Shown here: one piece after another, positions 3,012 through 6,000 of the stretch
How the letters are laid out: each line of letters begins with the position of its first letter
Position numbering within the stretch: position 1 is the stretch's first letter
Assembly (NCBI RefSeq): GCF_055900595.2
Contig: NZ_CM148325.1
Length of the DNA stretch: 64,000 bases
Strand: one strand, 5' to 3'
Made by a program: the position numbers

Positions 3012-6000
3012 GGAATGTTCATCTTGTGCTGCTGCACGGATGGGGACTGAATGCCAAAGTGTGGCGTTGCATTGATGAGGAACTTAGCTCGCATTTTACG
3101 CTGCATCTCGTTGATCTGCCCGGCTTCGGGCGCAGCCAGGGATTTGGTGCGATGTCACTTGCTGATATGGCTGAAGTCGTGCTGCGACAAGCGCCGGACA
3201 AAGCTATCTGGTTAGGCTGGAGTTTGGGCGGACTGGTGGCAAGCCAGATTGCGTTAACCCATCCCGAGCGGGTTCAGGCGCTGGTCACCGTGGCGTCGTC
3301 GCCATGTTTTAGTGCTCGTGACGATTGGCCGGGGATCAAACCGGACGTGCTGGCAGGTTTCCAGCAGCAACTCAGTGACGATTTTCAGCGCACGGTAGAA
3401 CGGTTCCTTGCGTTACAAACCATGGGTACAGAAACGGCACGCCAGGATGCGCGAGCGCTGAAGAAAACCGTTCTGGCGCTGCCGATGCCGAAGGTTGACG
3501 TGCTCAATGGTGGGCTGGAAATACTGAAAACGGTCGATCTCCGCCAGCCGCTGCAAAACGTGTCCATGCCGTTTTTGCGATTGTATGGCTATCTCGATGG
3601 TCTGGTGCCGCGCAAAGTGGTGCCGATGCTGGATAAACTCTGGCCACACAGCGAGTCGTACATCTTCGCCAAAGCGGCCCATGCGCCGTTTATTTCGCAT
3701 CCGGACGAGTTTTGTCACCTGCTGGTGGCGTTGAAGCAGAGGGTGTAGACAGCTGTTGAAATGGCGAGACAGAACTTTACTGGCTCGCCGCAGCCAACTC
3801 TTCTTCTGACAGCCCGGTAAAGCGCATGATGTCTGCAAGAGGGACTCCGGATTACAGCATTCTTTTGGCGATATCCAGGGCTTCCAGGCGTCGACCCAAT
3901 AAATAACCAATCAGGTAACTAATAAGATATTCTCTTTCTGCATCCGTCATTAAAACCATCCTTAACGTTATTGATGATTTATTTCAGCAAGGTCTTCAAC
4001 CGTCAGGCTGGTAAATCGCAGAACGTCCTCAAGAGAGACTCCGGCATCCAACATGGTTTTGGCAATATTTAGGGCGTTGGTACGTATACCTTTCTGAAAC
4101 CCCTCTTGCCGCAATCTTTCCGCAATAGTCATTAAACTCTCCTTGTGTTTCGGTGAACGTTCGGCCACACCATCGATAAAATCATTAAAACGTACTGCAT
4201 CGCCAGTTTGCAGTATGTAATTAAACAGCCCTTTGATTTGTCTGTCATTAGCGTATCCACTACTTAATAAGCAGGCCATTTGCTCTACCAGCCCCATCAG
4301 GTCGCGTTGACGTATATGTTTTTGGATTAACTCCAGCAGCGCCATACGTCGGTGCTGCATGATTTCATCATCAGGCATGACAGTGACATCAATCAGCGGG
4401 AATGCAGAGGCATAAAGCTGTCTGGCCAGTTTGGGATCGGCGAAACAATCCAGCCAACACAGTGAATAGGGATATGGGCTTTCAATGCCGTGGTAAAACA
4501 ACAATGGCACCACCATCGGCAACGTTTTGTATCCGGCATCCAGGTGATTTTGCATTGCGGCAATGGCGTAACGCATCATGCGAAATGCGATCAGTTTGTT
4601 TGAGGTGCTTTGATGTTCAATCAGACAATAGATATATCCCGGTCCTTGTTCCGTTTTCACCGACCACAGCACGTCGGAATAGCTTTCACGCAGATCGTCA
4701 TCAATAAAGCTGCTCGACTCCAGCTTGAGGGTTTTCATATCACAGAGCGCGTGAATAGGTGCCGGTAAATGGAACGCAAGAAAATCGCGCGCCGTCTCCG
4801 GTTGGCGTAAAAAGAGTTTGAACAGCGCATCGTGTGGGGTGGAACTCTGCTTTTTGCTCATGGCGTTCCTTCACCTGTTGTTTGAATGCCGCGACTCTAC
4901 GCGCCACTCCACACCTGTGCATTAGCGAGTTTTCATCCCTGCGAGACGCTTTCAGAGGAACTTACGTTGTACTGCAAGAGTTGCATTATTATGGAAAGCC
5001 GCACGCAAAAAAGCCCGGTTGCAAACGCATACCGGGCTTTCAAAACAGGCAGTAAAACAAGGTTAACGTAACGCCCACCACTCACGCAGACAGGCTTTGC
5101 CTTCCGGGCAGCTTTTACAACTGCCAGAGAGGCAGCCGTCAGGTTCTTCCTGAATCCGCACGGCTTTGCCCATACTTTCCAGCTGTTGCAGCATGGCGTT
5201 AATCATGGGTTGCGGAGTGTTCAATGTCTGGCTTATCTGGGCCGCTTCCATACGGCCCCGTAATGCCAGCAAATCACGCACCTGAATGAGCGAAGCCATT
5301 GCTGTATCCTTAGTGGCAATCGCCAGTGGTGCTGGCTGCACAGCAACTGCTTACCGATTTGCGTGTTGCCAGCAGTTCGATATCGACCCGGCTACGCGCG
5401 CGACGCAGCAAACCGATAACCACGATGTTAAACAGGATAACCGCCAGAATGCATACCAGGCTGTAGGTTGGATGCTGGCTGTAGCTGGCGACCTGGTAGA
5501 ACAATGTTGCCAACGAGTAAGCGATATTCAGCCCCCACAGGATGGAGAAGCCCATCCAGCCACGGCTGGATTCACGCGCGATAGCACCCATCACCGAGAT
5601 ACACGGTACATACAGCAGAACGAAAATCAGGTAGCTGTAAGCAGCTGCTGCGCTTCCAAATTTCTGATCCATCACGCCCATCGCTCCGGTACCCATTTCA
5701 CCGTCGCCTTTGCTCGCTTCAATGGGGTTCATCAGTACGCTAAGACTGAAGGTGTCTTTCAGGCTCTGCCAGGTTTCATCTACCGCGCTGAATAGCTCTT
5801 CACCGAGGTTAAATTCCGCCGGATTGAACTCTTCGTCCTGAATATTTTCTGCGGTGTAGAGGGTGTTGAGCGTACCCACCACCACTTCTTTCGCCATTGC
5901 GCCTGTAAACAGGCCAACAGTTGCCTGCCAGTTATCTTCATGTACGCCAATCGGCTTGAAGACCGGGGTGATCACCCGGCTGACGGAAGCCAGCGCCGAG

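What the first reader, a model, noticed from the sequence alone, without database searches (positions are those of the whole stretch)
3777..3950. Small ORF after rpnA duplicating the RpnA C-terminal tail, with an in-frame TAA
Seventeen nt after the rpnA (yhgA) stop, behind an AAGGA SD-like motif, a 57-codon frame reads [59 protein letters not shown]. Its nucleotides align with the 3-prime end of rpnA (RpnA tail ...[35 protein letters not shown]), and the TAA sits where RpnA has Asp. Rpn proteins have been reported as toxic nucleases restrained by small proteins from their own C-terminal region, so a separate tail-like gene next to rpnA, here interrupted, could be a decayed or regulated antitoxin-like element.
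Basis: partly seen in the sequence, partly recalled or inferred. Interest (0 to 1): 0.5.

Follow-up and report, generated by a model that had tools for sequence, protein, structure and literature searches.

The report
Broken spare antitoxin gene after rpnA
The small frame after rpnA is a stop-codon-inactivated second copy of the gene's own antitoxin module, a kind of extra copy already described for two sister rpn genes, so it is real but ordinary.

Summary
On the minus strand, 17 nt after the rpnA stop and 8 nt after an AAGGA, a 57-codon frame (ATG 3950, stop 3777) is cut by TAA at 3852-3854. It is homologous to the RpnA C-terminal domain (BLASTP E 2e-11; nucleotide z = 25).

It is a free-standing second copy of the RpnS antitoxin module, the "RpnSs" type that Zhong et al. 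2023 described after rpnE (ypaA) and rpnC. The ribosome-binding site and start were duplicated along with it.

- **Intact relatives:** uninterrupted 57-aa orthologues sit at the same place in E. ruysiae and a few metagenome contigs, with CAA, GAA or TAT at this codon.
- **E. coli census:** 853 of 5,426 complete genomes carry this long form. At least 839 have the same TAA; none has CAA or TAT. The stop is lineage-wide, not strain-specific.
- **Effect of the stop:** it falls at the end of helix 1 and removes the helix-turn-helix.
- **Decay:** substitutions look relaxed, and some alleles also lost the start or gained a second stop.
- **Link to K-12:** the part after TAA is about 97% identical to the K-12 rpnA 3' end. 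K-12 RpnA therefore looks like a fusion of the nuclease domain with this downstream copy.

Verdict: a pseudogenised rpnA "Ss". New member of a known kind; modest interest.

The parts
3968..4861 (-). rpnA, intact 297-aa nuclease/toxin gene (RpnA-L) with the 'INHQ'-type C-terminal domain
   Evidence: ORF. NCBIfam RpnA equivalog NF007361, 676 bits against a cutoff of 583. RefSeq annotation of the 100%-identical strain.
3968..4144 (-). In-gene antitoxin module RpnA-S: ribosome-binding site AAGGAG at 4144-4139, internal ATG at 4132-4130, then 54 codons ([54 protein letters not shown])
   Evidence: Coordinates. The site and start are identical to the K-12 internal start shown experimentally by Zhong et al.. 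No nonsynonymous change in any pairwise comparison (pN = 0).
3951..3967 (-). 17-nt spacer between the rpnA stop and the small frame, holding the duplicated ribosome-binding site AAGGA (3963-3959), 8 nt before the ATG
   Evidence: Homologous to the ribosome-binding site and start of the in-gene module.
3852..3950 (-). 5' part of the rpnA 'Ss' pseudogene: 32 codons ([32 protein letters not shown]) plus the premature TAA; corresponds to helix 1 only
   Evidence: Translation. The AlphaFold model of the intact orthologue has helix 1 at residues 3-33.
3894..3929 (-). Three diverged 12-nt units encoding YLIS-YLIG-YLLG, in register with the hypervariable four-amino-acid repeats (GLQE/GLQQ) of other RpnS proteins
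   Evidence: Protein alignment A2. Unit number varies elsewhere: P0021 has four, and E. albertii P0012-14 carry 1-3 copies of a YLISYLLDR unit.
3852..3854 (-). Premature stop TAA (codon 33), derived from CAA by a C-to-T change
   Evidence: CAA in E. ruysiae, E. albertii and L050; GAA in L016 and L018; TAT in L049. TAA in at least 839 of 853 long-form complete E. coli genomes.
3777..3851 (-). 3' remnant of the Ss gene: 24 codons (SGVPLADIMRFTGLSEEELAAASQ) plus stop. This is the helix-turn-helix part and is orthologous to the C-terminus of K-12 RpnA
   Evidence: 73/75 nt identical to the K-12 rpnA 3' end. Matches PDB 7TH0 (RpnA-S), E 4e-15.
2978..3748 (+). bioH, the convergent neighbour; its stop lies 28 nt from the Ss stop

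Best explanation
The frame is a nonsense-inactivated free-standing copy of the RpnA antitoxin module, an 'rpnA Ss' gene.

**Origin (inferred).** In an Escherichia ancestor the S module of rpnA was duplicated in tandem, just downstream of the gene. The duplicated unit comprised the ribosome-binding site, the start codon, a long dimerisation helix carrying four-residue repeats, and a helix-turn-helix.

**State in this lineage (shown).** A CAA-to-TAA change at codon 33 ends translation exactly at the end of helix 1. At most a 32-residue helix can be made, and the helix-turn-helix part is untranslated. The copy is drifting as a pseudogene. rpnA and its in-gene antitoxin (internal start at 4132) remain intact and constrained, so the toxin-antitoxin pair does not need the extra copy.

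**Link to K-12 (shown and inferred).** The stretch after the stop is the orthologue of the K-12 RpnA C-terminus (shown). The common K-12-type rpnA looks like a deletion that fused the nuclease domain and the first 11 S codons to such a downstream copy (inferred).

**Also inferred:** the tandem-duplication origin, co-transcription with rpnA-S, and loss of function.
For: **Homology and duplicated translation signals.**
- BLASTP E 2e-11 against the strain's own RpnA.
- Nucleotide alignment z = 25.
- The ribosome-binding site and start region align with the rpnA internal start.

**It is a gene elsewhere.**
- Intact 57-aa proteins carrying PF27070 (HTH_Rpn_C) are encoded 17 nt after rpnA and just before bioH. 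They occur in E. ruysiae, in genomes labelled E. coli, and in metagenome contigs.

**Fold.**
- The AlphaFold model of intact P0001 has pLDDT 92 and helices at 3-33, 38-45 and 49-56.
- Its only significant PDB match is 7TH0, E. coli RpnA-S (Foldseek E 8e-4, TM 0.83; sequence E 4e-15).
- The TAA is codon 33.

**Census of complete E. coli genomes.**
- 853 of 5,426 have the long form.
- An exact 30-mer containing the TAA is in 839 of them.
- CAA and TAT versions of that 30-mer are in none.
- All 7 sampled E. coli loci, plus the window, have TAA.

**Decay.**
- L006 also has ATG changed to AAG and a second stop; L007 has Leu to Pro; L005 and L009 have three replacements after the stop.
- Database variants include frameshifted or interrupted versions: P0011, P0015, P0032, P0039.
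- pN/pS is 0.5-1.0 for Ss. The in-gene S module shows no nonsynonymous change in any pair, and bioH gives 0.06-0.14.

**Outside annotation and precedent.**
- PGAP annotated the site in strain NU14 as a pseudogene with an internal stop.
- RpnSs genes after rpnE and rpnC, and their loss by deletion or fusion, are described in PMC10400941.

**Local origin.**
- The in-gene tail and Ss are each other's closest relatives (18/30 identical, sharing RFT, IAK and the final Q). Each matches Citrobacter tails at only 13-18 of 33-34.
- Citrobacter rpnA at feoC-bioH has a single tail and no Ss.
Against: - The ribosome-binding site, the ATG and the frame after the TAA are still intact in most alleles, and no indel was seen in the sampled E. 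coli loci. A 32-residue helix-1 peptide may therefore still be made and could have some activity.
- pN/pS rests on 8-17 substitutions per pair. It is also high between two intact alleles (L010 vs L013: 7 nonsynonymous, 3 synonymous). High values could reflect the diversifying selection proposed for RpnS rather than decay.
- No expression data for this strain type were available.
- Only 7 long-form E. coli loci were read base by base. The rest were classified by 30-mer matches.
Confidence: 0.8

Rival explanations
1. The truncated 32-residue product is itself functional. It would be a helix-1-only peptide that pairs with the dimerisation helix of RpnA-L or RpnA-S and tunes toxin activity, so the TAA is an adaptive shortening rather than a loss.
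For: - The TAA falls exactly at the helix 1 / loop boundary.
- Helix 1 is the dimer interface and the specificity determinant in RpnA-S (PMC10400941).
- The TAA is fixed in at least 98% of long-form E. coli genomes.
- The ribosome-binding site and ATG are retained in 6 of 7 sampled alleles plus the window.
Against: - Within the TAA lineage, codons 1-32 carry about 5 nonsynonymous or disruptive changes (Ser to Ile, Gly to Asp, start loss, a new stop, Leu to Pro) against about 2 synonymous ones. That is no better than the untranslated 3' part.
- Ss helix 1 has one more four-residue unit than the co-resident RpnA helix 1 and a very different sequence. In Zhong et al. a one-repeat mismatch abolished neutralisation.
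- No family model recognises the 32-mer.
Confidence: 0.07
2. The element matters mainly as DNA. It would be a silent donor cassette for recombination that swaps the RpnA C-terminal module and so generates new toxin/antitoxin specificities. This reading is compatible with the copy being a pseudogene.
For: The S modules at this locus are mosaics.
- The K-12 tail equals in-gene codons 1-11 joined to an L018-type Ss, at a GGGG junction.
- L016 is a window-type Ss with a K-12-type 3' half.
- L051 carries 'RRLEALDIA' in the in-gene copy and 'FQKGIRANALNIAK' in the downstream copy, the reverse of the window.
- Synonymous divergence of the S modules between E. coli and E. ruysiae (0.05-0.13) is lower than in the adjacent bioH (0.23-0.31), which hints at recent exchange.
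- Zhong et al. speculate that RpnL may itself promote such recombination.
Against: - Mosaicism shows that recombination happens, not that the copy is kept for that purpose.
- A crossover upstream of the TAA would import the stop into rpnA.
- No recombination-specific sequence was found.
- The counts are small and no formal breakpoint test was run.
Confidence: 0.15
3. It was never a separate gene. It would be the leftover 3' end of an older rpnA allele, stranded when a foreign allele with a different tail replaced most of the gene.
For: - The 3' third is nearly identical to the K-12 rpnA end.
- rpn genes move horizontally.
- Intact versions also evolve with high pN/pS.
Against: - The fragment starts with its own ribosome-binding site and ATG, homologous to the rpnA internal start.
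- It forms a complete 57-codon frame with a three-helix fold in E. ruysiae and other contigs, at exactly the same 17-nt spacing.
- A second two-copy architecture with a 19-nt spacer exists (L051).
- The two copies are each other's closest relatives.
Confidence: 0.08
4. Programmed readthrough or recoding of the TAA yields the full 57-residue protein under some conditions.
For: Only that the downstream frame is still open in most alleles.
Against: - TAA followed by T is the strongest termination context in E. coli (established knowledge).
- Known bacterial recoding uses TGA or TAG, not TAA.
- No structure or known RNA family lies at the site.
- Replacements accumulate after the stop in L005 and L009.
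Confidence: 0.01

Closest known systems
YpaA (RpnE-Ss) of E. coli K-12 and the rpnC-Ss genes of some E. coli strains (Zhong et al. 2023, PNAS, PMC10400941)
   Same: - A small gene just downstream of an rpn gene, on the same strand.
- It encodes a second copy of that gene's own C-terminal RpnS module, with its own ribosome-binding site and start.
- It arose locally from the upstream gene.
- It is subject to loss by deletion or by fusion with the rpn N-terminal domain.
   Different: - It sits after rpnA, for which no Ss is named in the paper's main text or in the supplement text held here.
- It is interrupted by a stop codon in E. coli.
- Its repeat region is hydrophobic (YLIS/YLIG/YLLG), unlike the usual unit of one hydrophobic residue plus three charged residues or glycine.
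- YpaA was shown to be made. Nothing is known about expression here.
RpnA-S, the intragenic antitoxin of K-12 RpnA (crystal structure 7TH0)
   Same: The region after the TAA is 24/24 residues identical to the K-12 RpnA-S C-terminus. The intact orthologue has the same three-helix fold.
   Different: RpnA-S is translated from inside rpnA. This copy lies outside the gene. It has a different and longer helix 1 (31 against about 23 residues) and is truncated in this strain.
Degenerate or orphan antitoxin genes of type II toxin-antitoxin loci
   Same: A redundant antitoxin-like copy next to an intact toxin-antitoxin pair, decaying by point mutation.
   Different: The cognate antitoxin is encoded within the toxin gene. 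The spare copy also shares sequence with it, which allows unequal crossing-over and fusion.

Membership tests
RpnS / RpnSs small proteins (Pfam PF27070 HTH_Rpn_C; formerly covered in part by DUF4351) | Sequence homology to the C-terminal domain of an Rpn nuclease | tested here: met
   - E 2e-11 against the strain's own RpnA.
- E 4e-15 against 7TH0 for the intact orthologue.
- NCBIfam RpnA model positions 254-292, E 4e-13.
- PF27070 is precomputed on P0001-P0010.
- The Pfam copy used by profile_search did not report this family.
RpnS / RpnSs small proteins (Pfam PF27070 HTH_Rpn_C; formerly covered in part by DUF4351) | Three-helix bundle: a long helix 1 followed by a helix-turn-helix | tested here: not met
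   Met for the intact orthologue P0001 (pLDDT 92; helices 3-33, 38-45, 49-56; top PDB hit 7TH0). Not met for the window copy, because the TAA at codon 33 leaves helix 1 only.
RpnS / RpnSs small proteins (Pfam PF27070 HTH_Rpn_C; formerly covered in part by DUF4351) | Four-amino-acid repeats, variable in number, starting 8-20 residues after the initiating Met | tested here: met
   YLIS-YLIG-YLLG starts at residue 8, in register with the GLQE/GLQQ repeats. The number varies: P0021 has four units, and E. albertii has 1-3 YLISYLLDR units. The composition is atypical.
RpnSs (free-standing downstream copy) | A separate gene with its own ribosome-binding site and start, just downstream of and co-oriented with the parent rpn gene, and most similar to that gene's own S module | tested here: met
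   - A 17-nt spacer with AAGGA 8 nt before the ATG.
- Same synteny in L010-L016 and L018.
- Closest to the in-gene tail.
RpnSs (free-standing downstream copy) | Uninterrupted reading frame | tested here: not met
   In-frame TAA at 3852-3854, shared by at least 839 of 853 long-form E. coli genomes. The copy is therefore filed as a pseudogene of this kind, not as a working member.
RpnL/RpnS toxin-antitoxin system | The small protein is made, binds RpnL, and blocks its nuclease activity and toxicity | not testable with these tools
   Needs tagging or ribosome profiling, plus toxicity and SOS assays as in PMC10400941.

The most novel reading that the evidence does not exclude
The rpnA-bioH gap holds a two-cassette system. 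The in-gene S module and the downstream Ss copy repeatedly exchange helix-1 and helix-turn-helix segments and occasionally fuse. New RpnA toxin/antitoxin specificities, including the K-12 reference protein, would then be generated from the spare copy even when that copy is itself a pseudogene.
Probability: 0.15. Interest if true: 0.6.

Novelty: new member of a known kind. Interest (0 to 1): 0.3.

Why it matters
- **It extends a known pattern.** The spare downstream antitoxin copy seen for rpnE and rpnC also occurs at rpnA, the best-studied Rpn protein. About one complete E. coli genome in six carries a dead copy there, which current RefSeq annotation mostly leaves unmarked.
- **It bears on K-12 results.** The K-12 RpnA used for the crystal structure and the biochemistry probably carries the downstream copy's C-terminal domain rather than the original in-gene one. 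That matters when K-12 results are transferred to strains with the long form.
- **It offers a natural test set.** Intact, truncated, fused and repeat-variant alleles could be used to test how helix-1 repeats set toxin-antitoxin pairing.
- **It is not a new mechanism.**

Tried and rejected
- **Pfam-A scan of the intact orthologue:** only chance-level hits. That library copy did not report PF27070.
- **Sigma-70 promoter scan of 3650-5100:** nothing found, so no independent promoter for the small frame could be proposed. The only terminator-like site near it is on the opposite strand, for bioH.
- **Rfam at a permissive threshold over 3400-5300:** two chance-level hits, neither in 3777-3967.
- **Back-translated pattern for the Ss N-terminus, scanned against 100,044 species-representative genomes:** no hit. 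The element is therefore rare outside particular Escherichia lineages, or the representative genomes lack it.
- **30-mers with CAA or TAT in place of TAA, against complete E. coli genomes:** no hit.
- **First 30-mer design:** it undercounted TAA (682) because of a nearby polymorphism. It was redesigned and then gave 839.
- **The L051 two-copy architecture:** absent from complete E. coli genomes.
- **The upstream ATG at 3959:** rejected as the start. It overlaps the ribosome-binding site, and the orthologues and the rpnA internal start both use the ATGAC start.
- **pN/pS for the rpnA N-terminal part, window vs L010:** discarded because an indel put the two sequences out of register.
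Full report
**What is in the sequence**

The window is the E. coli feoB-feoC-rpnA-bioH-gntX-nfuA region in reverse orientation. It is 100% identical over the queried stretch to strain Z0117EC0005.

rpnA lies on the minus strand at 3968-4861. It encodes an intact 297-aa protein that passes the NCBIfam RpnA equivalog cutoff. Seventeen nucleotides after its stop, and 8 nt after an AAGGA (3963-3959), an ATG at 3950 opens the frame. It reads [35 protein letters not shown] (3854-3852), SGVPLADIMRFTGLSEEELAAASQ, TAA (3779-3777).

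The similarity is not chance:
- BLASTP gives E 2e-11.
- The nucleotide local alignment scores 41, against 9.0 +/- 1.3 for dinucleotide shuffles.
- The similarity continues upstream through the ribosome-binding site and start codon, which match those of the internal start inside rpnA.

**What the literature says about such things**

The source is Zhong et al. 2023 (PMC10400941).
- Rpn nucleases are toxins (RpnL).
- Their variable C-terminal domain is also translated on its own from an internal start, as a small antitoxin (RpnS).
- RpnS is a three-helix bundle. Its long first helix forms the dimer interface and carries four-amino-acid repeats, and the number of repeats sets which L and S forms pair.
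- Some rpn genes are followed by a second, free-standing copy of their own S module (RpnSs). The examples are ypaA after rpnE in K-12 and a similar gene after rpnC in some strains.

An Ss after rpnA is not named in the main text or in the supplementary text held here. The figures could not be seen.

**The frame is an rpnA Ss gene**

A protein search with the frame, its stop replaced by Glu, found ten uninterrupted 57-aa proteins, each carrying the HTH_Rpn_C family PF27070. They come from E. ruysiae, from genomes labelled E. coli, and from metagenome contigs.

Their genes lie in the same place: feoC, rpnA, a 17-nt spacer, the 57-aa gene, then convergent bioH.

An AlphaFold model of one of them (P0001) is confident (pLDDT 92), with helices at residues 3-33, 38-45 and 49-56. 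Its only significant match among solved structures is 7TH0, E. coli RpnA-S (by sequence E 4e-15).

In a multiple alignment the segment YLIS-YLIG-YLLG falls exactly in the register of the GLQE/GLQQ repeats of other RpnS proteins. The number of units varies among relatives. P0021 has four, and E. albertii fusion proteins carry one to three YLISYLLDR units. The repeat composition is unusual: three hydrophobic or aromatic residues plus Gly, Ser or Asp. The published description is one hydrophobic residue plus three charged residues or glycine.

**The stop codon**

- **Ancestral state.** E. ruysiae, E. albertii and contig L050 have CAA at this codon. The TAA is therefore most simply a C-to-T change.
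- **Other sense codons.** Two metagenome alleles, L016 and L018, have GAA within K-12-like sequence. One contig, L049, has TAT in an otherwise TAA-lineage allele.
- **Census.** Among 5,426 complete E. coli genomes, 853 have the long form. An exact 30-mer spanning the TAA occurs in 839 of them.
- **The remaining 14.** These were not matched by the 30-mer. The one such allele read in full, L009, has a nearby polymorphism and still carries TAA.
- **Alternatives.** The same 30-mer with CAA or TAT occurs in none.
- **Direct reading.** All seven E. coli long-form loci read base by base carry TAA.

The stop is therefore fixed in the E. coli lineage that has the element. It is not a strain-specific accident, and it is not universal in the genus. 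It falls at codon 33, the end of helix 1, so any product is helix 1 alone.

**Signs of decay**

- One allele (L006) has also lost the start codon and gained a second stop.
- Another (L007) has Leu to Pro in helix 1.
- L005 and L009 have three replacements after the stop.
- The protein database holds frameshifted or interrupted versions (P0011, P0015, P0032, P0039).

Pairwise Nei-Gojobori counts:

| Region | pN/pS |
|---|---|
| Ss | 0.5-1.0 |
| In-gene S module | no nonsynonymous change in any pair (1-5 synonymous) |
| bioH | 0.06-0.14 |

Two cautions apply. The counts are small. The ratio is also high between two intact alleles (7 nonsynonymous, 3 synonymous), so relaxed constraint may predate the stop, or diversifying selection may contribute.

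Within the TAA lineage, codons 1-32 are no better conserved than the untranslated part. That argues against a selected 32-residue peptide.

RefSeq annotates the site in strain NU14 as a pseudogene with an internal stop. Most other records leave it unannotated.

**Relation to K-12 rpnA**

In 84% of complete E. coli genomes, including K-12, the locus is about 206 nt shorter.

K-12 RpnA ends in [49 protein letters not shown]. The last 75 nt are 73/75 identical to the stretch after the TAA in the window.

The segment EQSKALHIAKIMLE is found in the Ss copy of contig L018. K-12 rpnA therefore equals the first 11 codons of the in-gene S module joined, at a GGGG microhomology, to an L018-type Ss. This is the 'fusion' route to Ss loss mentioned by Zhong et al.

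Several results support the two-copy state being the older one in Escherichia:
- **E. albertii.** It retains Ss-type sequence (YLI repeats, an ASQ end, CAA) in a deletion remnant.
- **A second two-copy architecture (L051).** It has a different in-gene tail (GVQQ repeats, ending EIIH) and a downstream copy with an ASQ end.
- **Closest relatives.** The in-gene and downstream modules are each other's closest relatives.
- **The outgroup.** Citrobacter rpnA genes at feoC-bioH have one tail and no downstream copy.

E. whittamii has the K-12-type short form, so the fusion is either old or has been transferred.

**How it most likely works, or no longer works**

- **Shown:** the homology, the duplicated translation signals, intact orthologues with the RpnS fold, the lineage-wide nonsense codon at the helix 1 boundary, and the intact, conserved rpnA with its in-gene antitoxin.
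- **Inferred, co-transcription:** the spare copy was probably co-transcribed with rpnA-S. Only 17 nt separate them, and no terminator-like site was found between them or elsewhere on that strand near the frame.
- **Inferred, loss of function:** in this lineage the copy no longer yields an antitoxin.
- **Inferred, pairing:** even the intact form might not pair with the co-resident RpnA-L. Its helix 1 is one four-residue unit longer and very different, and a one-repeat mismatch abolished neutralisation for RpnC.

**Rivals**

- **A functional helix-1 peptide.** Not excluded, but unsupported.
- **A role as a recombination donor for tail switching.** Suggested by the mosaic alleles, and by lower synonymous divergence in the S modules than in bioH. 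Unproven.
- **A mere stranded allele end.** Contradicted by the complete, correctly spaced frames in relatives.
- **Readthrough.** There is nothing in its favour.

**Verdict**

It is a new locus-level example (rpnA) of a published kind of element (RpnSs), here as a pseudogene. The most useful by-product is that the reference K-12 RpnA C-terminus appears to derive from this downstream copy.

Noticed in passing
L003 (E. coli JJ1886, ST131) 1165-1607: rpnA has a large internal deletion that removes most of the nuclease domain. The start of the gene and the whole S (antitoxin) module are kept. RefSeq marks it as a partial pseudogene. The same annotation recurs in several rows of the genome survey.
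   Followed up: partly
L017 (E. albertii) 2501-2737; proteins P0012-P0014: A deletion fuses RpnA residues about 42-69 directly to the Ss repeat region. Alleles differ by one, two or three copies of a 27-nt unit (YLISYLLDR). Repeat number therefore keeps changing even in a locus without a nuclease, which suggests that slippage rather than selection drives at least some of the variation.
   Followed up: partly
L051 1-690 (metagenome contig ERZ928014): A third architecture. The end of a TnpB-like ORF sits about 75 nt upstream of a truncated rpnA, whose in-gene tail is of another type (GVQQ repeats, RRLEALDIA, ending EIIH). After a 19-nt spacer comes a downstream copy reading [30 protein letters not shown]...ASQ. 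The helix-1 segments are swapped between the two copies relative to the window. This architecture is absent from 5,426 complete E. coli genomes.
   Followed up: partly
L008, L016 (and, by its 12-nt shorter match span, E2348/69); window equivalent about 4069-4080: Some long-form alleles have a 12-nt (four-residue, TNAL) deletion in helix 1 of the in-gene S module, giving RpnA of 293 instead of 297 aa. This is the four-residue length variation described by Zhong et al., here within rpnA itself.
   Followed up: partly
window 3777-4132 against 2978-3748, compared with L010 and L013: Synonymous divergence between E. coli and E. ruysiae is 0.05-0.13 in the two S modules but 0.23-0.31 in the adjacent bioH. 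This may reflect recent exchange of the S modules between lineages. The numbers are small.
   Followed up: no
window 3781-3796, plus strand: A weak terminator-like hairpin (TGGCTCGCCGCAGCCA followed by a poor T run) downstream of bioH lies antisense to the last codons (LAAASQ) of the Ss remnant. Those are also the last codons of K-12 rpnA. If it serves bioH, it could help preserve this stretch.
   Followed up: no
L049 1501-1674 (metagenome contig): An allele otherwise of the E. coli TAA lineage has TAT (Tyr) at the stop position, which restores the 57-codon frame. This is an apparent one-step reversion, seen in a single 3.3-kb contig, so a sequencing error cannot be excluded.
   Followed up: partly
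L002 (strain Z0117EC0005) between rpnA and bioH: RefSeq locus tags jump from RS21100 (rpnA) to RS21110 (bioH), while neighbouring tags rise in steps of 5. A feature once called at the Ss site may have been dropped from the listing. In NU14 the site is kept as a 'transposase' pseudogene with an internal stop.
   Followed up: no
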